Shown piece after piece: positions 1 to 18,762 of a DNA stretch of 64,000 bases. Source of the stretch: Shigella phage Sf14; sequence record MF327003. One strand, given 5' to 3'. Numbering within the stretch: position 1 is the stretch's first letter; every line of letters starts with the position of its first letter. The position numbers and the translations under genes are program-made. The notes beneath the pieces were generated by a model that had not been told where the DNA came from, ran no database searches, and saw only the letters and a program-made list of their open reading frames with translations.

Positions 1-129
1 TCAACAACTTATAAAAATCTTTTGAAAAACTATTGACAATGCCCCTTGACAAGTGTAACTTTGTTCGAGGGGGTTTATCTAAAAAGGGATTAACTTAATA
101 GATTCTTTATAGATAAGCGTAAAAAGTAC

Positions 130-158
130 TTGCAAAGGTCTAATCATATCTATATAGT
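130..158 (+). promoter_or_regulatory. sigma70-like promoter (TTGCAA-N17-TATAGT)
   Basis: -35 TTGCAA 130-135, 17-nt spacer, -10 TATAGT 153-158, upstream of first small gene. Confidence 0.4.
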
Positions 159-197
159 ATCTTCAAAAGGCAACTTCCTAAACTGGAGAATCACTAA

Positions 198-338
198 ATG
201 TTAGATATCATTAAAAACCCTATCCTTTGCGGTATGATTGTTTCTGTTGTGTTGCCATTAGCAATGCTCATCATTGGTGAAATCTCAGATAAACTTTTTG
301 ATAAAAAACTACTTGCAATGCAGAATCAAAACAAGTAA
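198..338 (+). CDS. small hydrophobic protein (46 aa), single predicted TM segment
   Basis: ATG 198 six nt after cassette copy 1; hydrophobic core CGMIVSVVLPLAMLIIG; below ORF-track size cutoff. Confidence 0.4.
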   Translation: MLDIIKNPILCGMIVSVVLPLAMLIIGEISDKLFDKKLLAMQNQNK

Positions 339-402
339 AGTATTTATCAACGGGGAGGGAGACTTCCCCACTAAACAAAATTCCTAAACTGGAGAATCTA
401 GA

Positions 403-930
403 ATGAATAAGTTTAATGCTGTTAATGCAATCCGTAGCCGTGAAGTGATGAGCAAGCCTTGTAAAGATACTTGGGAATTTACCTTAAAGAGCAAAGTTTT
501 TGCAGTTATCACAAAAGGGGAAGATAAGAAGTTTTATGTACACCGACCAAATGTAAAAGCGGTAACAGCCAACAACTTTATGGGGGCTATTTCTCTTATT
601 CTGAATGATTATATGGCTATAGTCGCAGAAATTCACGAAATGGCTATTAAGGCAACTAAAAACGAGTTAAACCGCTTTAAAATGGCTTATGAGCGCTCTA
701 TTAAGTCCCATAATCTTTTTATTGCAATCCACTATACAGGCATGTATGCTATGGGAACGGGTAACCAACAATACCCACTCTATGAAGTGGAAAACATCTT
801 TACAAGTGACTACCCAACAACTAATTTTAAAATTACGTTAGGGGAAGCATTAAATAGGGGAATTAGGCTTTACGAACAATCTTTAAAAAACTTAGAAAAT
901 TCCCTTGACGAAATCATCACAAATCTATAA
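403..930 (+). CDS. hypothetical protein (175 aa)
   Basis: ORF track; ATG preceded by cassette copy 2. Confidence 0.6.
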   Translation: MNKFNAVNAIRSREVMSKPCKDTWEFTLKSKVFAVITKGEDKKFYVHRPNVKAVTANNFMGAISLILNDYMAIVAEIHEMAIKATKNELNRFKMAYERSIKSHNLFIAIHYTGMYAMGTGNQQYPLYEVENIFTSDYPTTNFKITLGEALNRGIRLYEQSLKNLENSLDEIITNL

Positions 931-990
931 AGTACTTATCAACGGGGAGGGAATGACCTTCCCCAACAATCCTAAACTGGAGACTAGAAA

Positions 991-1254
991 ATGAATAATC
1001 AAGAAATCACTATCCTGTTACAAATCGGTACTGACAAAGAAGATATCCAACTTTGCAAACGTATTGAAAGTGATTGGTTCAACGGTGAAATCATCGCAGA
1101 ATCTTATGAAGTAGTCGGATTCATGAATGGTGAAATTGTAAGCCATTTTGGTTTAACTAAATCTGAAGCCGTTGCAAAGTATGACGTTTTATCTTGTGAG
1201 ATTCTTACAAAATACAATGAAAAAAGACTTGCAACTTATGCAGCAATGAATTAA
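991..1254 (+). CDS. hypothetical protein (87 aa)
   Basis: ORF track; cassette copy 3 upstream. Confidence 0.6.
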   Translation: MNNQEITILLQIGTDKEDIQLCKRIESDWFNGEIIAESYEVVGFMNGEIVSHFGLTKSEAVAKYDVLSCEILTKYNEKRLATYAAMN

Positions 1255-1319
1255 TATTACTTTCAACGGGGAGGGAGACTTCCCCACTAACCTAAATTCC
1301 TAAACTGGAGAATCTGAAA

Positions 1320-1571
1320 ATGGCTACTATCCGCGCAACTGTTAACAATTTTGGCTTCCATGTATTAGATGTTAAATTTGATATGGTTGGCACTGGTGAT
1401 GCTTTTGGCATGGTTGATATGTGTCTGAAAGCAACTATTCAGGATTACAATCAATCTGAGTGGTTCTGGAAAGAAGTTAAACAAGAAGTCTTAAAGGATG
1501 GCGTATCCTCTTACTATTGGGGTGATTCTCTTATCACGCTTTACTATGAAGTTGACGGCTTCAATAACTAA
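1320..1571 (+). CDS. hypothetical protein (83 aa)
   Basis: ORF track; cassette copy 4 upstream; terminator downstream. Confidence 0.6.
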   Translation: MATIRATVNNFGFHVLDVKFDMVGTGDAFGMVDMCLKATIQDYNQSEWFWKEVKQEVLKDGVSSYYWGDSLITLYYEVDGFNN

Positions 1572-1585
1572 CAAGTCGCCGCAAC

Positions 1586-1635
1586 GGGGCAAATAGCCCC
1601 AGACACCTTTACAGCCCCTTAGATGGGGCTTTTTT
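1586..1635 (+). terminator. tandem hairpins; second (AGCCCC-TTAGAT-GGGGCT + TTTTT) is an intrinsic terminator
   Basis: GC stems at 1586-1600 and 1613-1630 followed by T5 run. Confidence 0.7.
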
Positions 1636-1639
1636 ACGT

Positions 1640-3135
1640 CTTCCTAGAATCTTACCAGACATTTAGAACAATAACTCTATAGCTTACTCTATATCCTCTT
1701 ATCAAATCAACTTAAATATAAGCCCATAACCCGAAAGGGAAGGGCAATCCCTAAAACGCTCTATAACGCTCTATACGGGCTTATCATCTCATCTTAAGCA
1801 ATCATATTAACCTACTCTTAAAAGCCCTTCATAGAGCTTTCTAGAGCCTTAAAAGAATCTTATAAGGGTATAAGCTTTATTATCTCGTTAGTATCTTGTG
1901 AATGGTTAAACAGGGGCTATGAGATAGGACTCTATCGAATCCTATTGATAATAGCTTTAAAGTATGCTATGGAATCTAAAAAGAGCCTTAAAAGTAACGT
2001 AAAAGTTAGCCCCCTTTACATTCTCTTAACAAAATCTTAACAAATGCTACATAGTTATGCTTATTAGAGACTTGTTAGCCCCTTGTTAAATCCTTGTTAG
2101 AGGTATGTTAAGAGCTTGTTAGACTCTTTGAAGTCCCTGTATAAGCCCCTAGAAAGCCCTATAAAGAGCTATACAGGTAGTTGGGGTGTAGTTACTAGGG
2201 AGAACCTTAGAAGAGGCTATACAGAGCTATACAGGGCTTTTAAGAGGGCTTTATAAAGAATCACTAAGAAGGTAAGGGAACTATAGACCAAGAGATAGTG
2301 ACCATGTTAAGAGACTGTTAAAAAGGTTTAGAACTTGTTAATTATCTTAACAAATAACTCTTAAGATTTAACTATTTAGCAACTTATAAGCAACTTGTTA
2401 GACCCTTGTTAGTAGTGTTACAGAATGGTTAAGCTCTTGTTAGTTCTGTTAAGAAACTGTTAAGAACTCTGAAGAGATGTTAAGAGCTTGAGAGAGTTGT
2501 TAAGAGATTGTTAATGATATTTTAAGATTTTGCAAAGGGGATGTTACAGGGCTGTTAAGGGCTACCAAGCAGATATACATCCTCTGTAGATATTTTTCAG
2601 ATTCTCCAAAGACCCCTAAATAAACACTACCTAGTCTATTTTATAAAAATTTTATAATTCTGAATAACTATCTATACACTATCTTATATAAAACAGGAAT
2701 TAACAGGCTTATAAGATACCTTGTTAGTACCGTGTTAGACCTTGTAGGATAAGCCTTAGAAGGGAATACCTGTTTAGTGTTATATAACAGTCTATATAGA
2801 GGCTTAGTAATACCTAGTGATTCTGCTATATAGGGTACTATCGTTTACCTAGAGATTAAGATGAGTATAGGGGCTTCTAAGGGGCTAGGAAGAGGTTAGG
2901 AAGGTGATTGTATAGGGTTGATTAATGGGAGGCTTAGAAGGCTTTATAGAGGGCTATATAGAGAGCACTATTTAGAGACTAAGAGGCTATATAGATACTG
3001 TATAATACTATATAGAGATGATGCTTAGAGAGGGTGTTTAGAAGGGTATAGATATTTTATCACATATCATGGTGACCCAAGATGAACGGAGTGAATCCCA
3101 AATTTTATAAAAATTATAAATTTCGTAAATTTTAC
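1640..3135. repeat. repeat-dense AT-rich non-coding region (TGTTAAGA / CTTGTTAG / CTATACAG / CTATATAGAG unit families)
   Basis: no ORF of 60 aa or more on either strand; many short direct repeats, densest 2060-2520 and 2930-3030. Confidence 0.7.
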
Positions 3136-3140
3136 TCAAT

Positions 3141-3161
3141 AAAAAGCCCCAATTAAGGGGC
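3141..3161 (-). terminator. intrinsic terminator for leftward unit
   Basis: GCCCC-AATTAA-GGGGC hairpin; on minus strand followed by U-run (A5 at 3141-3145). Confidence 0.65.
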
Positions 3162-3170
3162 TGTATAGTC

Positions 3171-3842
3171 TTACATCAATTCACTAAGCATGGCTTGCAA
3201 TGAAGTTTTAGAAGTCTGGAAGAAGTGTGTGAACCCATTATGACGTTCTCTTACCTGAATCATTATCTGGTCACCCTTAATCGGGTGTGAACTAATATGG
3301 TATTCATTCATGTTCAGTACAACACCCAAACCATCTATAATGTGTCTGAGTATGTCATATTCAACAAATTCTTCTTTACCTGTGACCTTGATACAAACAC
3401 CTTTGTTGGTTCTCTTAGGGTTTATATCTTCCATAACCAGCATTTGTTGTCCACCAAGAGAAATCATAGAGAACTCTTTACGGTTCTGCTGCTTAACATA
3501 CATCTCAAGTTTCTTCAAAGTATCTTCATAGAACGGATAAGACTTCTTGACAAAGACACCTTCAAGTGGCTCTTTACCTGAATCTTCTCGTTCCATCTTA
3601 AGTCGATTAACAAGTAAGTCTAAAGACCACTTCTCACTTTCGTCAAGATGTGTGTTGATATCATCTAGGCTAAGTACCAGATACTTTCTTTCAAGTTCAA
3701 ACTTTTTCATCTCTATCAAATCCTTAAAGCATTTCTTAGTAATTGCTTCCCATTCTTCGGAGTTCTTTCTCTTCCTCTTCAGATGGGGAACCATATCTGT
3801 CAAGTTCTTCCAACTCTTCTTCAGTAGGTGTCCCATAATCAC
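3171..3842 (-). CDS. hypothetical protein (223 aa)
   Basis: ORF track; last gene of leftward block. Confidence 0.6.
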   Translation of the reverse strand: MIMGHLLKKSWKNLTDMVPHLKRKRKNSEEWEAITKKCFKDLIEMKKFELERKYLVLSLDDINTHLDESEKWSLDLLVNRLKMEREDSGKEPLEGVFVKKSYPFYEDTLKKLEMYVKQQNRKEFSMISLGGQQMLVMEDINPKRTNKGVCIKVTGKEEFVEYDILRHIIDGLGVVLNMNEYHISSHPIKGDQIMIQVRERHNGFTHFFQTSKTSLQAMLSELM

Positions 3843-4273
3843 ATCTTAAGTTTGAAAGTGTTTTTACCATTGACCTGAATATATCCATCATTTTCAACTA
3901 TCCAGTGTGCGGTTGAGAATGCACTATATGCGTTTGCTTCACCATAACCAAGAAACTTACCATCACACACACTTTCAATATGTATTGTGCCTACTGGTTC
4001 ACCTGTATCCACGGTTTCTACAATATAGAGTGTGTTTAGCTTTATGGAACTAACTTTAGTCTCTTCTTTGAAGCATTCAGATAGGGACATATCAAGCCCT
4101 TCAGTTATTACAAATTGCATGTATGCTTCTGAGCACTCCCAGATAAAGCTATGAAGAAGAACCTTTGCAGCATGTCTTGAACAACCAAACTCTGCAACGA
4201 TATCTTTGTACATATCATCTTTAGTTCCGTTGTTAAGCAAAGCTTTACGCACTATCTCTTTAACATTCTTCAT
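3839..4273 (-). CDS. hypothetical protein
   Basis: ORF track; start trimmed to ATG at 4273 (MKNVKEIV) giving 14-nt overlap with upstream gene. Confidence 0.5.
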   Translation of the reverse strand: MKNVKEIVRKALLNNGTKDDMYKDIVAEFGCSRHAAKVLLHSFIWECSEAYMQFVITEGLDMSLSECFKEETKVSSIKLNTLYIVETVDTGEPVGTIHIESVCDGKFLGYGEANAYSAFSTAHWIVENDGYIQVNGKNTFKLKM

Positions 4274-6067: not shown

Positions 6068-6804
6068 TCTTTCACCATTGCGTTGTAGAATTGCCTTTGA
6101 ATCTCTTCAGCAATCTGATAAGGTGTGAAACCAGCTTTTAACATCATTCTTACTGTGTACTCAATGTCATTCTTATTAACCACATGGTCTGTGACACTGA
6201 TTGCTTCTTTTAACTCTTCCACATTCTTTTTAGCATCTTCACAAGCGCTGGTCAACATGGAGTTAAATTTCTTTTGTGGTGTAGTCCAAGCATGACTATG
6301 TGGATTTGCATCACAGAAATACTTGAAGTAATCTCTGACGTTATCTACAACCAGAGTTTGATGGCCATCTTCTTTAGTTTGGTATCGAGACTCTTGCTCA
6401 GGTACATCTGCAAGTCTGTGTGTAGGAGCCTCTATAGTAACATCAATCGTTCTAACCTTTGGAGTTGCCTCTTTCTTCATAGTCGGAGTTGCCTCAAAAG
6501 TTGCCTTTTCAGTTTCTTCTTCATCCCCTACCACAGTATCTTGTAAAGAAATACCCAGAAGCTTTCTGAAGCTTCCTGTGAAGGTTAAGTTTTCAATATC
6601 AGTGGTCGAATAGACTTTACCAGCCCATAAGTGTGCTTCTGGACCAAGTGATGTTGCTGGATAAATCTTGAAATGTAATGTCTTCATAGGTCGGAAGTAC
6701 ACAACCCCGCTATCAGACACATACGTAACAAATGCCTTAGTTCTTTGGGCTGGTGAAGCCTTTACATAAATGTAAATTGTGTCTGTCTCTTTAACTTTAA
6801 CCAT
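6064..6804 (-). CDS. hypothetical protein (246 aa)
   Basis: ORF track. Confidence 0.6.
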   Translation of the reverse strand: MVKVKETDTIYIYVKASPAQRTKAFVTYVSDSGVVYFRPMKTLHFKIYPATSLGPEAHLWAGKVYSTTDIENLTFTGSFRKLLGISLQDTVVGDEEETEKATFEATPTMKKEATPKVRTIDVTIEAPTHRLADVPEQESRYQTKEDGHQTLVVDNVRDYFKYFCDANPHSHAWTTPQKKFNSMLTSACEDAKKNVEELKEAISVTDHVVNKNDIEYTVRMMLKAGFTPYQIAEEIQRQFYNAMVKE

Positions 6805-7469: not shown

Positions 7470-7820
7470 CTATAACTTCCTCACTAAATACTTTTTAAGT
7501 GGTGTCTTCGGTTTTTCAAAGACCTCAATAGAATCTATTTTGATGCCCTCACCACGCATACCTGTGGATTGGTAGATGTAGAACTCAAGCATCCCTATAT
7601 TTTTAGCTGGCATATCATGCTTAACAAAGATGGTCACTGACTCTTCACTTTTAAAGATTACTGTACCGTCTTTATACACAAGCTTATCAGGTTGTTTATA
7701 GTCAAGCATATCAAACATCAGAAATAGTCTTTGCTGACATTTGTCCAGCCTTGATGACAGGGCTTCTTGTATATCTGCGAAATTCTTATAAACAACGATG
7801 TGGAGCTTAAGCATCTGCAT
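7470..7820 (-). CDS. hypothetical protein
   Basis: ORF track; start trimmed to internal ATG (about 7820) to limit overlap with upstream gene. Confidence 0.45.
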   Translation of the reverse strand: MQMLKLHIVVYKNFADIQEALSSRLDKCQQRLFLMFDMLDYKQPDKLVYKDGTVIFKSEESVTIFVKHDMPAKNIGMLEFYIYQSTGMRGEGIKIDSIEVFEKPKTPLKKYLVRKL

Positions 7821-8100
7821 ATTCTCTGACGAAGAAGTAGTTGATTTTGTTATCGGACACCAGAAGGTCATAGCAAGTAATCTCGAACTTATTCTTTTCA
7901 GCATCATAGCTGGTGTATGGCTCAGAAACTTGCTTTGTTGACACTTTTGGGTTATTAGGGTTTAAAAGGCCACCATAAAGTTTCTTAATGGCCTTTGTTG
8001 CCACACTCCAGATAACATCATCAGTGAGTTCTTCGTACAGGTCAAACTCGGCTTCATAGCTGAAGTCATTAATTGGAAAGATAACCTGTACTTTACTCAT
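7807..8100 (-). CDS. hypothetical protein (97 aa)
   Basis: ORF track. Confidence 0.5.
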   Translation of the reverse strand: MSKVQVIFPINDFSYEAEFDLYEELTDDVIWSVATKAIKKLYGGLLNPNNPKVSTKQVSEPYTSYDAEKNKFEITCYDLLVSDNKINYFFVREYADA

Positions 8101-17145: not shown

Positions 17146-17161
17146 ATTTTAGGAGATTCCT

Positions 17162-17371
17162 ATGAAGCCTTATGGTAGACATGGTAAAGTTGAAATTGCA
17201 AGTTGTGGCTGCTGTGCAGCGCATGATGAAGAAGATTATTACAAATGGCGTACAGACCATCGTAAACGCTTTCTCAGAAGAGATAAGAAGAGAGCTAGAC
17301 AGGAATCTCAAAAGGATATTGCAGAATTAGTTCAAATGGACAGAGCAGCAACCTACGAAGTTGTTAGTTAG
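17162..17371 (+). CDS. candidate small basic Cys-containing protein (69 aa) inside tRNA island
   Basis: AGGAG 7 nt upstream of ATG; 3' end overlaps tRNA-Arg by ~50 nt so may be spurious. Confidence 0.3.
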   Translation: MKPYGRHGKVEIASCGCCAAHDEEDYYKWRTDHRKRFLRRDKKRARQESQKDIAELVQMDRAATYEVVS

Positions 17372-17397
17372 GGGTTCGAACCCTCTATTCTGCACCA
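17321..17397 (+). tRNA. tRNA-Arg (ACG)
   Basis: acceptor GCAGAAT/ATTCTGC perfect, loop CTACGAA, CCA. Confidence 0.7.
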
Positions 17398-17405
17398 AAT
17401 TTAAT

Positions 17406-17481
17406 AGGGGATTAGTTTACAAGGTTAAAACCTCGGTCTTTGAAATCGAAGAAGATGGTTCAATTCCATCATCCCCCGCCA
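17406..17481 (+). tRNA. tRNA-Gln (TTG)
   Basis: anticodon stem TCGGT/ATCGA loop CTTTGAA, weak 1-72 pair and G73, CCA. Confidence 0.65.
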
Positions 17482-17483
17482 AC

Positions 17484-17562
17484 GCTCCATTACTCCAATT
17501 GGCAGAGAGGCCAGATTTAAAATCTGTGTTATGTATCGGTTCGAATCCGATATGGAGTACCA
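17484..17562 (+). tRNA. tRNA with Leu anticodon TAA, short variable arm
   Basis: acceptor GCTCCAT/ATGGAGT, loop TTTAAAA, A73, CCA. Confidence 0.6.
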
Positions 17563-17568
17563 AATATT

Positions 17569-17644
17569 AGCAGTATAGCATAACTGGCAATGCTCCAGCC
17601 TCTGAAGCTGAAAGATTAAGGTTCAAATCCTTATACTGCTGCCA
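17569..17644 (+). tRNA. tRNA-Gln (CTG)
   Basis: acceptor AGCAGTA/TACTGCT perfect, loop CTCTGAA, CCA. Confidence 0.65.
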
Positions 17645-17647
17645 CTT

Positions 17648-17673
17648 CTAAGGGTTCTTACGAGAGTCCTTAA
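17648..17673 (+). ncRNA. hairpin motif copy C with loop GTTCTTACGAG
   Basis: stem TAAGG/CCTTA (compensatory relative to copy A) around identical 11-mer. Confidence 0.45.
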
Positions 17674-17675
17674 AT

Positions 17676-17752
17676 GTGGCCTTATCATAAATGGATAATG
17701 ACCCATACTGTGAACATGGTCTATACGGGTTCGATTCCCGTAGGTCACCCCA
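17676..17752 (+). tRNA. tRNA-His (GTG)
   Basis: loop CTGTGAA, discriminator C73, T-arm ACGGG/CCCGT, CCA; no encoded G-1. Confidence 0.6.
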
Positions 17753-17758
17753 ATTTCA

Positions 17759-17835
17759 TAGCTCAATTAGCTTATATGGTTAAAGCGCGTGTCTGAAAAA
17801 CATGAGAACAGGGTTCAAATCCCGATGGGCTACCA
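17759..17835 (+). tRNA. tRNA-Phe-like (GAA), irregular D-arm/acceptor register
   Basis: anticodon stem CGTGT/ACATG loop CTGAAAA; acceptor pairing ambiguous. Confidence 0.45.
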
Positions 17836-17851
17836 ACTTTATAGGTGCATA

Positions 17852-18586
17852 ATGAAAGAGATGACAGAACAAAGTAAAGAGATTTTTAATCTTCTTAAAA
17901 CTGGTAATGGTTTCTCAAACCCTCTTATTACTGGTGCAGCAGTTCTTGGTGGTACTATAGCTGCCTCTCAATCATTAGTTAACTCAATTAGTTCTGTAAC
18001 AGACCCAGCTACACAACAGATTTTAGTTGCTGCTGGACTGACAACAGCCTTATTAGGAAGCTTCACAACAAGCCTTGGAAGTACAACTTCAACGACAAGT
18101 ACACTTACTGAGTATGGACAAAAGTCTGTAGATGAGTTTTCACAACGTATGCAAGTAGCTAAAGGTTACTCTAACGTTATGGGAGCAGCAGGTGAACAGG
18201 TTGGATGTACACCGTTTAGCGGTATCATGGGCGTAGCTACCGAGTACGGTAATAAAGCGATGGATTTGATTAATACCTCCATAGACGCTGTAAATAGCGT
18301 TCTAAGCGATTTGCAAGATGCAATCGACCAAGGACTAGATACAATCTCTGAACTCGCTACACAGGCCGTTACAGCGATTAATGAGGGTATTGCAAAGATT
18401 ACTGCATATGCTAACGAAGTAACTCAGATGATTGCAGATGAAGCAGCACTGATTGCAGAATATCTGAAAACAAATATTAATGGTTTCCTTGCGAATGTTC
18501 TACCAAGCTGGTTTGATGATTCATGTAAAACTGGTGTGATTGATACTATCGCAACTCCAGAGATGAAAGAAGCTCTGAACAAATAA
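17852..18586 (+). CDS. glycine-zipper membrane protein with helical C-terminal domain (244 aa), embedded in tRNA island
   Basis: start trimmed to ATG 17852 (track start overlaps tRNA); hydrophobic segments LITGAAVLGGTIAAS and ILVAAGLTTALLGSF. Confidence 0.55.
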   Translation: MKEMTEQSKEIFNLLKTGNGFSNPLITGAAVLGGTIAASQSLVNSISSVTDPATQQILVAAGLTTALLGSFTTSLGSTTSTTSTLTEYGQKSVDEFSQRMQVAKGYSNVMGAAGEQVGCTPFSGIMGVATEYGNKAMDLINTSIDAVNSVLSDLQDAIDQGLDTISELATQAVTAINEGIAKITAYANEVTQMIADEAALIAEYLKTNINGFLANVLPSWFDDSCKTGVIDTIATPEMKEALNK

Positions 18587-18587
18587 T

Positions 18588-18680
18588 GGAAGATTAACCC
18601 TAAAAGGTAAGGGAGCAGTTTGCTAAACTGCCAGTAACCGAGAAATCGGCGTACCAGTTCAAGTCTGGTATCTTCCTCCA
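18588..18680 (+). tRNA. tRNA-Ser (GCT), type II
   Basis: acceptor GGAAGAT/ATCTTCC perfect, anticodon stem GCAGT/ACTGC, long variable arm, CCA. Confidence 0.8.
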
Positions 18681-18686
18681 AATTAT

Positions 18687-18762
18687 GTGTCGGTGTCAGA
18701 AATGGTTATGTGCCTGTCTGCAAAACAGGTTTATGAGGGTTCGAGTCCCTTCCGATACTCCA
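18687..18762 (+). tRNA. tRNA-Cys (GCA)
   Basis: anticodon stem CCTGT/ACAGG loop CTGCAAA, CCA. Confidence 0.75.

What the first reader, a model, noticed from the sequence alone, without database searches (positions are those of the whole stretch)
160..1320. Repeated hairpin plus CCTAAACTGGAGAATC cassette before four consecutive small genes
Four near-identical 16-mers containing the Shine-Dalgarno GGAG precede the ATGs at 198, 403, 991 and 1320. Three are additionally preceded 10-25 nt upstream by a GC hairpin (GGGGAGGGA..CTTCCCC) with no following U tract. The regularity suggests a dedicated processing or translation-control module, for example RNase III-type sites, for a co-regulated set of small early proteins, one of which is a 46-aa membrane peptide.
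Basis: seen in the sequence. Interest (0 to 1): 0.5.

Follow-up and report, generated by a model that had tools for sequence, protein, structure and literature searches.

The report
Promoter–hairpin–RBS cassettes before phage genes
Each small gene here, in a Felix O1-like phage, is preceded by the same ready-made expression cassette (a likely promoter, a GC hairpin and a fixed ribosome-binding site), a kind of element already described in T4-like phages that also acts as a recombination point for swapping small genes.

Summary
The 16-mer CCTAAACTGGAGAATC lies before the ATGs at 198, 403 and 1320, with a 2-mismatch copy before 991. Three 7-8 bp GGGG..CCCC hairpins without U tracts precede the last three genes.

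The window is an Ounavirinae phage (Mooglevirus, 96% identical to vB_EcoM_3HA14). It cuts into the end of an array of 9-19 small genes, nearly all preceded by such cassettes.

In 73 of 78 unique relatives of these cassettes, TTGnnn-17-TAnnnT sits at one fixed register, ending 10 nt before the hairpin. In the window the upstream stop codon is the start of the -10 hexamer.

A second cassette class, found only in relatives, has the hairpin between -35 and -10.

Gene content differs between phages, with junctions inside the cassettes. The architecture matches the PeSL (promoter-early stem-loop) cassettes of T4-type phage RB49, down to the GGAGAATC ribosome site.

RNase III processing is not supported: the stems are too short.

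Verdict: a PeSL-type composite cassette in a phage subfamily where I found it recorded only as 'direct repeats'. It is a new member of a known kind, of moderate interest. Promoter activity and the hairpin's role are inferred, not shown.

The parts
121..158 (+). Promoter-like site of the first gene: A tract 121-127, -35 TTGCAA 130-135, 17-nt spacer, -10 TATAGT 153-158. Predicted start about A165. No hairpin.
   Evidence: 9 of 12 consensus match; conserved in 3HA14, SflM004, SUSP1 and Mijalis; A tract plus CTTGCAA repeated at 121, 304 and 1220 (family D10).
177..192 (+). Ribosome-site 16-mer, copy 1 (CCTAAACTGGAGAATC; GGAG 9 nt before the ATG at 198).
198..338 (+). 46-aa gene with a single hydrophobic helix. 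Its last 8 codons carry the -35 of the next cassette. Present or absent between relatives.
   Evidence: (phrog_7482, unknown function).
304..402 (+). Class A cassette 1: A tract 304-309, -35 TTGCAA 313-318, -10 TAAAGT 336-341 (its TAA is the stop codon of the 46-aa ORF), predicted start about A349, hairpin 352-369, 16-mer 383-398.
403..930 (+). 175-aa gene, homologue of Felix O1 ORF22 (75 of 175 residues identical), function unknown.
905..990 (+). Class A cassette 2: -35 TTGACG 905-910, -10 TAAAGT 928-933 (its TAA is the stop codon of the 175-aa ORF), predicted start about A941, hairpin 944-964, 16-mer variant 971-986.
   Evidence: (flagged as promoter-like).
991..1254 (+). 87-aa gene, function unknown.
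1220..1319 (+). Class A cassette 3: A tract 1220-1225, -35 TTGCAA 1229-1234, -10 TAATAT 1252-1257 (its TAA is the stop codon of the 87-aa ORF), predicted start about A1265, hairpin 1268-1285, 16-mer 1299-1314.
   Evidence: (96% identical to cassette 1 over 53 nt).
1320..1571 (+). 83-aa gene, homologue of Felix O1 ORF23 and last gene of the array.
1586..1600 (+). Orphan cassette-type hairpin (GGGGCAAATAGCCCC, preceded by CAAC) after the last gene. It has no promoter or ribosome site.
   Evidence: conserved in Michonne and Felix O1.
1613..1636 (+). Intrinsic terminator that ends the array (stem 1613-1630 plus T run). Equivalent to Felix O1 t23.

Best explanation
Each intergenic repeat is a composite, self-contained early-expression cassette of the PeSL type (promoter-early stem-loop). 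Its parts, in order, are:
- an A-rich tract;
- a host sigma-70 promoter (TTGnnn, 17 nt, TAnnnT) overprinted on the last eight codons and the stop codon of the upstream gene;
- a GGGG..CCCC stem-loop beginning 10 nt after the -10 hexamer, which is about position +4 of the predicted transcript;
- a short unstructured A/C-rich spacer;
- a fixed ribosome-binding module (CCTAAACTGGAGAATC, then 5-6 nt, then ATG).

On this reading every small gene gets its own promoter and a standard translation start. The hairpin is a boundary element at the RNA level. It would attenuate, or form a protected 3' end for, transcripts reading through from upstream. It would also be the 5'-terminal stem-loop of the cassette's own transcript, which should slow 5'-end-dependent decay.

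Because the same modules recur every few hundred bases, they also serve as homology for recombination that inserts, deletes and swaps the small genes between related phages.

Shown here: the sequence anatomy, its conservation pattern, hairpin covariation, and the junctions of gene gain and loss. Inferred: promoter activity, the start sites, and what the hairpin does.
For: (1) Identity and context. The window is Ounavirinae/Mooglevirus. In relatives the same strand carries 9-19 consecutive small genes, nearly all preceded by CCTAAACTGGAG. The cassette is found in 245 phage records at 1134 places, nearly all Escherichia, Salmonella, Shigella and Citrobacter phages, with every listed full-length record 84-98 kb.

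(2) Promoter. Among 78 unique class A cassettes from 17 distinct upstream contexts, 64 have TTG-N20-TAnnnT at one register, 9 more are shifted by 1 nt, and none sit at any other register from -8 to +8. Information content peaks at the A tract, TTG and TA...T and is low in the spacer. Where the cassette is fully intergenic the -35 is a perfect TTGACA. In the window, three unrelated ORFs each place a Leu CTT codon 8 codons before a TAA stop that starts the -10.

(3) Second class, in relatives only. TTTACA is present in 84 of 84 copies. TAnnnT lies 17 nt downstream in 76 and 18 nt in 7. The loop columns U, A and U are invariant while the three columns between them vary, so this is a promoter with the stem-loop between -35 and -10.

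(4) Hairpin. There are 32 distinct class A hairpin cores. In 47 of 49 variants the hairpin starts exactly 3 nt after AAC/GAC. Inner pairs covary: pair 4 is GC/CG/AU/GU and pair 5 is AU/CG/GC.

(5) Shuffling. There are 26 distinct arrays, and 9 of 19 recurrent gene families are preceded by two or more cassette classes. The 46-aa gene is absent from SUSP1 and Mijalis with the junction in the 16-mer. It is absent from Felix O1 and bumzen with a different junction, in the A tract/TTGCAA repeat. Paralogous cassettes show signs of gene conversion.

(6) Match to the known kind. RB49 PeSLs read directly are TAA, A tract, GTTGACA, GGGG..CCCC, TATAAT ... GGAGAATCAAAATG, and are defined that way by Arbiol et al. 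2010 (PMC2839356). That paper reports that a PeSL stem-loop placed before lacZ reduced expression about as much as a strong terminator.

(7) Timing. Felix O1 ORFs 16, 20, 21 and 22 of this array peak 5 min after infection.
Against: No transcript 5' ends are known for any Ounavirinae phage in the literature searched.

Judged one at a time, the promoter matches are modest: 8-9 of 12 consensus positions. Promoter-like matches in the region are not above shuffles (12 against 10.5), and the pattern is only weakly enriched across the window (24 against 14.9 +/- 4). The case therefore rests on comparative conservation, and part of that could reflect common descent of the repeats.

Felix O1 ORFs 17, 19 and 23 of the same array peak at 25 min, not 5 min.

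The orphan hairpin at 1586-1600 has no promoter or ribosome site and is still conserved. This argues that the hairpin's main role may concern the upstream transcript rather than 5' protection.

The conservation of CCTAAACT upstream of GGAG is not explained by pairing with 16S rRNA.
Confidence: 0.7

Rival explanations
1. The four genes form one polycistronic early transcript from the promoter at 130-158, and the hairpins are endonuclease processing sites (RNase III type) that cut it into separately stable or translatable pieces.
For: A plausible promoter lies upstream of the first gene and a single strong terminator follows the last. The hairpins are intercistronic, as in the T7 early region (established knowledge). 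The class B cassettes of relatives can form a 20-bp interrupted helix (-27 kcal/mol, z = -4.7) with one compensatory G:C to U:A change in its outer stem, which is of RNase III-substrate size.
Against: The window hairpins are 7-8 bp with 4-5 nt loops and no extended pairing, well below the roughly 20 bp RNase III needs. Hairpin cores as short as 4 bp occur at the same position in relatives. The model does not explain the fixed-register TTG-17-TAnnnT conservation or the invariant TA...T inside the class B loops. Rfam has no match.
Confidence: 0.08
2. The hairpins are only transcription attenuators or 3'-end stabilisers within a read-through operon. The promoter-like hexamers are inactive relics carried along with the repeat.
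For: An RB49 stem-loop of the same G-run/C-run type, without a U tract, strongly lowered downstream lacZ expression (PMC2839356). The orphan hairpin at 1586-1600 is conserved without a promoter or ribosome site. Single-sequence promoter scores are unremarkable.
Against: The -35 and -10 key positions are conserved while the spacer is free to vary, across 17 unrelated upstream contexts including three different coding sequences in the window. This is the signature of selection on a promoter, not of passive inheritance. Fully intergenic copies carry a perfect TTGACA.
Confidence: 0.12
3. The conserved 16-mer around the Shine-Dalgarno sequence is chiefly the recognition site of a phage-encoded post-transcriptional regulator. 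This could be a RegB-like nuclease cutting at GGAG or a RegA-like translational repressor, which would shut off this gene set together.
For: Eight bases upstream of GGAG (CCTAAACT) are conserved far beyond what 16S rRNA pairing requires. T4 RegB cuts GGAG in early-gene ribosome sites (annotation; established knowledge).
Against: No RegB homologue was found in the window or in nine related 10-18 kb regions (best E = 7.8). No Felixounavirus-named record appears among the organism groups listed for the 1138 tblastn hits, and nearly all hits shown are T4-like genomes of about 160-170 kb. RB49 PeSLs share only GGAGAATC, not CCTAAACT. This could at most be an added layer on top of the cassette function.
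Confidence: 0.05
4. The repeats have no regulatory role. They would be recombination scars or a selfishly spreading short repeat that happens to lie between genes.
For: Gene gain and loss junctions lie in the repeats. There are signs of gene conversion between copies.
Against: Every copy sits in one orientation, at exact register with a stop codon upstream and a start codon downstream, and supplies the only Shine-Dalgarno sequence of the gene. Hairpin pairing is maintained by compensatory changes.
Confidence: 0.05

Closest known systems
PeSL (promoter-early stem-loop) cassettes of T4-type phages RB49/phi1, PST and nt-1 (Arbiol et al. 2010, PMC2839356; Comeau et al. 2014, PMC4122927)
   Same: Both are composite intergenic repeats of about 70-100 nt. 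Both contain an A-rich tract, a sigma-70-type -35/-10, a G-run/C-run stem-loop with G-U pairs and no U tract, then a Shine-Dalgarno sequence and ATG. Both occur as many copies clustered before small genes of unknown function in a variable region. In both, gene insertions, deletions and replacements between related phages have junctions in the repeats. Read directly, RB49 copies even share the GGAGAATC-(A-rich)-ATG ribosome module. One relative (SflM004) has GTTGACA-AGGGG..CCCC-TACTAT, which is the commonest RB49 layout.
   Different: The phage lineage is different (Ounavirinae, about 88 kb, against Straboviridae). There was no blastn-level similarity to T4-type genomes. In the window's class the stem-loop lies after the predicted start site at a fixed distance, and the promoter is overprinted on coding sequence with the stop codon inside the -10. 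In RB49 the stop codon lies upstream of the -35. The Ounavirinae cassette also has an extra conserved CCTAAACT block. Promoter, attenuator and mini-circle activities were shown experimentally for RB49 and not here.
5'-terminal stabilising stem-loops of E. coli mRNAs (ompA and papA leaders; Emory, Bouvet and Belasco 1992, as cited in review PMC3997798)
   Same: A stable hairpin would lie within about 3 nt of the predicted 5' end of each class A transcript (predicted start at the A of CAAC, hairpin from +4).
   Different: The start sites are predicted, not mapped. The class B cassettes of relatives place the hairpin upstream of the predicted start, so this cannot be the general role of the hairpin.
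RNase III processing sites of the T7 early region
   Same: Hairpins lie between consecutive early genes, each followed by a ribosome site.
   Different: T7 sites are interrupted helices of about 20 bp or more. The window hairpins are 7-8 bp. Only the class B cassettes of relatives reach that size.

Membership tests
PeSL composite cassette (Arbiol et al. 2010) | Sigma-70-like -35 and -10 boxes inside the repeated intergenic motif | tested here: met
   TTGnnn-17-TAnnnT lies at one fixed register in 73 of 78 unique class A copies. TTTACA-17/18-TAnnnT is present in 83 of 84 class B copies. The spacer is variable. This is sequence evidence only.
PeSL composite cassette (Arbiol et al. 2010) | [quoted passage not shown] | tested here: inconclusive
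   An A tract upstream of the -35 is present (AAAAA at 121, 304 and 1220). In the window, however, the stop codon lies inside the -10, not upstream of the -35. Fully intergenic copies in relatives do have the stop upstream of the -35.
PeSL composite cassette (Arbiol et al. 2010) | Stable stem-loop with G-run/C-run arms, at a variable position relative to the promoter | tested here: met
   GGGG..CCCC hairpins lie after the -10 in class A and between -35 and -10 in class B. G-U pairs are present.
PeSL composite cassette (Arbiol et al. 2010) | Shine-Dalgarno sequence and start codon at the 3' end of the motif | tested here: met
PeSL composite cassette (Arbiol et al. 2010) | Many copies clustered in a variable region, before genes of unknown function | tested here: met
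   There are 4 copies in the window and up to 16 per related genome, all in one array. The products match only PHROGs of unknown function.
PeSL composite cassette (Arbiol et al. 2010) | Insertions, deletions and replacements between related phages have endpoints in the motifs | tested here: met
   The 46-aa gene has two alternative junctions, both inside cassette modules. 9 of 19 gene families are preceded by more than one cassette class.
PeSL composite cassette (Arbiol et al. 2010) | Demonstrated promoter and attenuator activity, and excision as mini-circles | not testable with these tools
   Needs reporter assays and inverse PCR.
PeSL composite cassette (Arbiol et al. 2010) | Sequence relatedness to the RB49/phi1 elements | tested here: inconclusive
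   No T4-type hits by blastn. The GTTGACA-GGGG..CCCC layout and the GGAGAATC-A-rich-ATG module are shared. Convergence is not excluded.
RNase III processing site | Duplex of about two helical turns (about 20 bp), often with an internal loop | tested here: not met
   The window hairpins are 7-8 bp and no longer-range pairing is predicted.
Intrinsic (Rho-independent) terminator | GC-rich stem followed directly by a U tract | tested here: not met
   The hairpins are followed by ACTAAAC or AACAATC. On this strand within the operon, only 1613-1630 passes the scan.
RegB-type cleavage of early-gene GGAG sites | Phage encodes a RegB endoribonuclease | tested here: not met
   tblastn with T4 RegB finds no hit in the window or in nine related regions. 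No Felixounavirus-named record appears among the organism groups listed for the 1138 hit records. About 24 kb of this genome lies outside the window.
5'-terminal stabilising stem-loop | Stem-loop within a few nucleotides of the primary transcript's 5' end | tested here: inconclusive
   The distance from the -10 to the hairpin is fixed at 10 nt, which predicts a 3-nt 5' tail. The start site itself is not mapped.
Any Rfam family | Covariance-model match | tested here: not met
   No credible match in 1-4000; the best hit is 22.7 bits against a threshold of 80.

The most novel reading that the evidence does not exclude
The Ounavirinae cassettes and the RB49-type PeSLs may belong to one shared pool of plug-and-play early-expression cassettes that circulates between unrelated virulent enterobacterial phage lineages. 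The grounds are the shared GTTGACA-GGGG..CCCC-TAnnAT layout and the shared GGAGAATC-A-rich-ATG ribosome module. These cassettes would be the vehicle by which small orphan genes move, for example as excised mini-circles. In the window's class the hairpin at +4 would additionally act as a built-in 5' mRNA stabiliser or insulator that makes expression independent of the inserted gene.
Probability: 0.2. Interest if true: 0.6.

Novelty: new member of a known kind. Interest (0 to 1): 0.4.

Why it matters
Felix O1-like phages are widely used for Salmonella and E. coli typing and biocontrol, yet the Felix O1 genome paper states that it is not known how their transcription is organised or temporally regulated (PMC3185647). 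Reading these repeats as promoter, stem-loop and ribosome-site cassettes gives testable start sites for a whole block of early genes. It explains why the paper saw 'direct repeats' there. It also explains why this block differs in gene content between otherwise near-identical phages. The PeSL idea of regulatory cassettes doubling as recombination modules would extend beyond the T4-like phages. Finally, the cassettes are compact natural promoter/5'UTR/RBS parts that could be used to engineer these phages.

Tried and rejected
- **Rfam, permissive thresholds, 1-4000.** Only sub-threshold noise.
- **RNase III reading.** Rejected for the window because the stems are 7-8 bp with no extension.
- **Intrinsic-terminator reading.** Rejected because there is no U tract.
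- **RegB-type GGAG cleavage.** I took the T4 RegB sequence and searched all phage records and the local loci. There was no hit in the window or related loci and no Felixounavirus-named record among the listed groups.
- **Single-sequence promoter scans.** Not significantly above shuffles, so they are not used as evidence on their own.
- **Pfam and PHROGs on the four products.** No function assigned.
- **16-mer in 185,579 bacterial and archaeal genomes.** 47 single, unrelated hits, as chance would give, and no multi-copy locus.
- **Literature searches for Ounavirinae or Felix O1 transcript maps or a prior description of these cassettes.** Nothing beyond 'direct repeats' in the Felix O1 paper and unlabelled repeat_region features in the Mordin record.
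- **Two local TAAAG..CTTTA palindromes in class B as protein operators.** Less likely than long-range pairing, because the one compensatory change links the outer halves. It is probably a single event.
Full report
**1. Observation**

The sequence is as described.
- CCTAAACTGGAGAATC occurs exactly at 177, 383 and 1299, and with two mismatches at 971. These are the only four matches in the 64-kb window at up to three mismatches. Shuffles gave a mean of 0.74.
- Each copy puts GGAG 8-9 nt before an ATG that opens an ORF of 46, 175, 87 or 83 aa.
- Three GGGG..CCCC hairpins (352-369, 944-964, 1268-1285) have 7-8 bp stems and no following T run.
- The repeat is larger than reported. The whole intergenic region and the last ~30 nt of the upstream ORF are repeated (families D6, D7 and D10).
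- A fourth related hairpin (1586-1600) follows the last gene, just before the real terminator at 1613-1636.

**2. Where the window comes from**

Bases 1-3000 are 96.5% identical to Escherichia phage vB_EcoM_3HA14 and 91-96% identical to Shigella phages Sf13/Sf15 and Citrobacter phages Michonne and Mordin. All are Ounavirinae, genus Mooglevirus.

In these relatives, and in Felix O1, SUSP1, Mijalis, KhF1 and bumzen, the four genes are the tail of an array of 9-19 consecutive small genes. The array lies downstream of rIIA/rIIB, polynucleotide kinase, spanins and a phosphatase. It ends at the same terminator.

Window position 1 falls in the long spacer before the 46-aa gene, so most of the array is outside the window. 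Nearly every gene of the array is preceded by CCTAAACTGGAG. The cassette is found in 245 phage records at 1134 places. Nearly all are Escherichia, Salmonella, Shigella and Citrobacter phages, and every listed full-length record is 84-98 kb. In IMG/VR it occurs mostly on contigs of about 80-94 kb. In bacterial genomes the 16-mer occurs only as unrelated singletons.

**3. Anatomy**

I collected 183 unique cassettes from 35 sources. They fall into two main classes, plus a hairpin-less promoter form like the one before the 46-aa gene.

*Class A (the three in the window).* The layout is an A tract, TTGnnn, 17 nt, TAnnnT, 10 nt ending in ATCAAC, the hairpin, a short A/C-rich spacer, then CCTAAACTGGAG.
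- Among 78 unique copies from 17 distinct upstream contexts, TTG-N20-TAnnnT lies at one register in 64 and one base off in 9. It lies at no other register between -8 and +8.
- Information content peaks at the A tract, TTG and T-A-...-T, and is low in the spacer.
- Where the cassette lies wholly between genes, the -35 is TTGACA.
- In the window the promoter is overprinted on coding sequence. The stop codons at 336, 928 and 1252 are the first three bases of the -10 hexamers (TAAAGT, TAAAGT, TAATAT). Three unrelated proteins each have a CTT Leu codon eight codons before the stop, and that codon supplies the TTG of the -35.
- A start at the A of CAAC, 8 nt after the -10, would give transcripts beginning AAC-GGGG..., with the hairpin from +4. 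This is inference.

*Class B (relatives only; none in the window).* The layout is TAAAGTRC-TTTACA-N-GGGGYTTA...TAAGCCCC-AGATAAAGAGCTTTAC...CCTAAACTGGAG.
- TTTACA is present in 84 of 84 copies, even when the class is defined by its downstream half alone. TAnnnT lies 17 nt further on in 76 copies and 18 nt in 7.
- In the alignment the loop columns U, A and U are invariant while the three columns between them vary. This is a promoter with the stem-loop between -35 and -10.
- Class B can also form a 20-bp interrupted helix (-27 kcal/mol, z = -4.7). Its outer stem shows one compensatory G:C to U:A change, probably a single event.

*Hairpins.* The class A hairpins have 32 distinct cores, from GGGAAACATCCC to GGGGAGGGAATGACCTTCCCC. 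In 47 of 49 variants they start at the same base. The inner pairs covary (pair 4 GC/CG/AU/GU, pair 5 AU/CG/GC). Pairing is therefore selected for, not a particular sequence.

**4. Gene shuffling at the cassettes**

I found 26 distinct array layouts. Nine of the 19 recurrent gene families are preceded by different cassette classes in different phages, and upstream neighbours vary.

The clearest case is inside the finding. The 46-aa gene is present in the window, 3HA14, Michonne and SflM004.
- It is absent from SUSP1 and Mijalis. There the first promoter is joined to the 175-aa gene through a single 16-mer, which corresponds to the loss of exactly one 206-bp repeat period, 177 to 383.
- It is absent from Felix O1 and bumzen with a different junction, in the AAAAAnTACTTGCAA repeat (121 against 304, a 183-bp period). 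That leaves promoter, hairpin and 16-mer before the 176-aa gene.

Two independent junctions, each in a different repeated module, are what recombination between cassette modules predicts. Paralogous cassettes within a genome also share loop or flank variants: GAGA/GAGA in the window, GAAA/GAAA in Michonne, and identical flanks in L021. This suggests gene conversion.

**5. Comparison with what is known**

Arbiol et al. 2010 (PMC2839356) define PeSLs in T4-type phages RB49 and phi1. Their description has these elements:
- a composite intergenic motif of about 100 bp;
- the upstream stop codon in an AT-rich tract;
- a sigma-70-like promoter;
- a stem-loop rich in G runs and C runs, placed between, over, upstream of or downstream of the promoter boxes;
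- a Shine-Dalgarno sequence and start codon;
- many copies concentrated before orphan genes in hyperplastic regions;
- a role in mediating insertions, deletions and replacements.

They showed promoter activity. They also showed that one stem-loop placed before lacZ lowered expression about as much as a strong terminator, and they detected excised mini-circles.

I read the RB49 elements directly. A typical copy is TAAAAAGTTGTTGACAGGGGATC..GATCCCCTATAATGC...AGGAGAATCAAAAATG. The layout is the same as here, and the ribosome module GGAGAATC-(A-rich)-ATG is shared. It occurs 12 times in 20 kb of RB49 and not at all in 10 kb of T4. One cassette in SflM004 (GTTGACA-AGGGG..CCCC-TACTAT) has the commonest RB49 layout. 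All testable defining features are met, except that in the window the stop codon lies in the -10 rather than upstream of the -35. Whether the two sets are related by descent or by convergence is open, because blastn finds no T4-type match.

In the literature I could search, Ounavirinae cassettes appear only as unexplained items. The Felix O1 genome paper lists '57 bp' and '39 bp direct repeats' and states that how its transcription is regulated is unknown (PMC3185647). The Mordin record carries unlabelled 14-nt repeat_region features. The KhF1 record annotates 'terminators' on the opposite strand within this array.

**6. Mechanism and its limits**

Most likely (0.7), each cassette is an autonomous early expression unit. 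The hairpin marks the boundary between units. It would attenuate or cap read-through transcripts from upstream, by analogy with the RB49 experiment and consistent with the conserved orphan hairpin at 1586-1600. In class A it would also form the 5'-terminal stem-loop of the new transcript. Such 5' stem-loops stabilise E. coli mRNAs against 5'-end-dependent decay (Emory, Bouvet and Belasco 1992, as cited in PMC3997798).

Early timing is supported for Felix O1 ORFs 16, 20, 21 and 22, which peak at 5 min. It is not supported for ORFs 17, 19 and 23, which peak at 25 min.

Weak points:
- No start sites have been mapped.
- Individual promoter matches are modest: 8-9 of 12 positions, and scans are not above shuffles.
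- The CCTAAACT block is unexplained.

**7. Rivals**

- RNase III-type processing is not supported for the 7-8 bp window hairpins, though the class B helices of relatives are of suitable size.
- Canonical terminators are excluded by the lack of U tracts.
- A RegB-like GGAG nuclease is not encoded in the window or related regions.
- An attenuator-only reading cannot explain the promoter-type conservation.
- A purely selfish or scar reading cannot explain the exact register with stop and start codons, or the hairpin covariation.

**8. Verdict**

It is wrong on the mechanism proposed, and it is incomplete because it misses the promoter, the much longer array and the shuffling. The feature is a PeSL-type cassette in a new phage subfamily. 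That makes it a new member of a known kind, of moderate interest (0.4).

Noticed in passing
window 1640-3140: A 1.5-kb stretch without an ORF lies between two convergent terminators (1613-1636 on +, 3145-3162 on -). It is packed with short direct repeats: CTTGTTAG/CTGTTAAG in 11-nt phase (2053-2133, 2376-2423, 2446-2525) and GCTATACAG/CTATAAAG units (1749-1779, 2137-2235, 2932-2962). The same gap exists in all related phages (Felix O1 ORF23 to ORF24), and the bumzen record marks repeats there. It could be an origin/iteron or genome-end region. UAB_Phi87 is reported to have 608-bp terminal repeats.
   Followed up: partly
window 2594-2608 (- strand): There is a perfect inverted copy of the ribosome module TGGAGAATCTGAAAA (identical to 1306-1320) inside the non-coding region. 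It is not followed by an ATG. It looks like a decayed cassette on the opposite strand.
   Followed up: no
window 30-90: A CCCC..GGGGG hairpin (about -15 kcal/mol) contains two TTGACA hexamers (33-38, 46-51). It lies in the long spacer upstream of the first gene's promoter and is conserved from Mooglevirus to Felix O1. It may be a further promoter/stem-loop composite.
   Followed up: partly
window 300-338, and L001 (Michonne) about 815-858: The promoter part of the cassette is translated as the C-terminus of the upstream protein. The 46-aa protein ends ..KKLLAMQNQNK*, and an unrelated 115-aa Michonne protein ends ..KKELAIKNQNK*. The cassettes therefore donate a few C-terminal codons to whatever gene lies upstream.
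   Followed up: partly
window 14151-18762: A cluster of 25 tRNA genes lies on the + strand. A 29-nt repeat (TTTACAGAAGACCGTTTACAGCAAACAA) sits between some of them, at 14314, 14477, 14959 and 15047.
   Followed up: no
window 9405-10120: Three tandem copies of a 249-nt unit, 65-75% identical to one another. Not examined further.
   Followed up: no
L083 (RB49) and the related loci: The RB49 PeSLs and the Ounavirinae cassettes share the ribosome module GGAGAATC-(A-rich)-ATG. It occurs 12 times in 20 kb of RB49, 13 times in 18 kb of 3HA14, and not at all in 10 kb of T4. Whether this reflects common origin or convergence is unresolved.
   Followed up: partly
L004 (Felix O1) 7626-7943; L008 (KhF1) features at 3060-3080, 3925-3945 and 6642-6662: These look like annotation problems in public records. 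Felix O1 ORF19 is annotated as starting at an ATG inside a cassette hairpin. The KhF1 record annotates several minus-strand 'Rho-independent terminators' within this + strand array, at positions close to where I found cassettes.
   Followed up: no
L010 (IMG/VR copy of a 90-kb phage): One array gene (family f4, 85 aa) is tandemly duplicated, and each copy has its own class B cassette. This is what unequal crossing-over between cassettes would produce.
   Followed up: no
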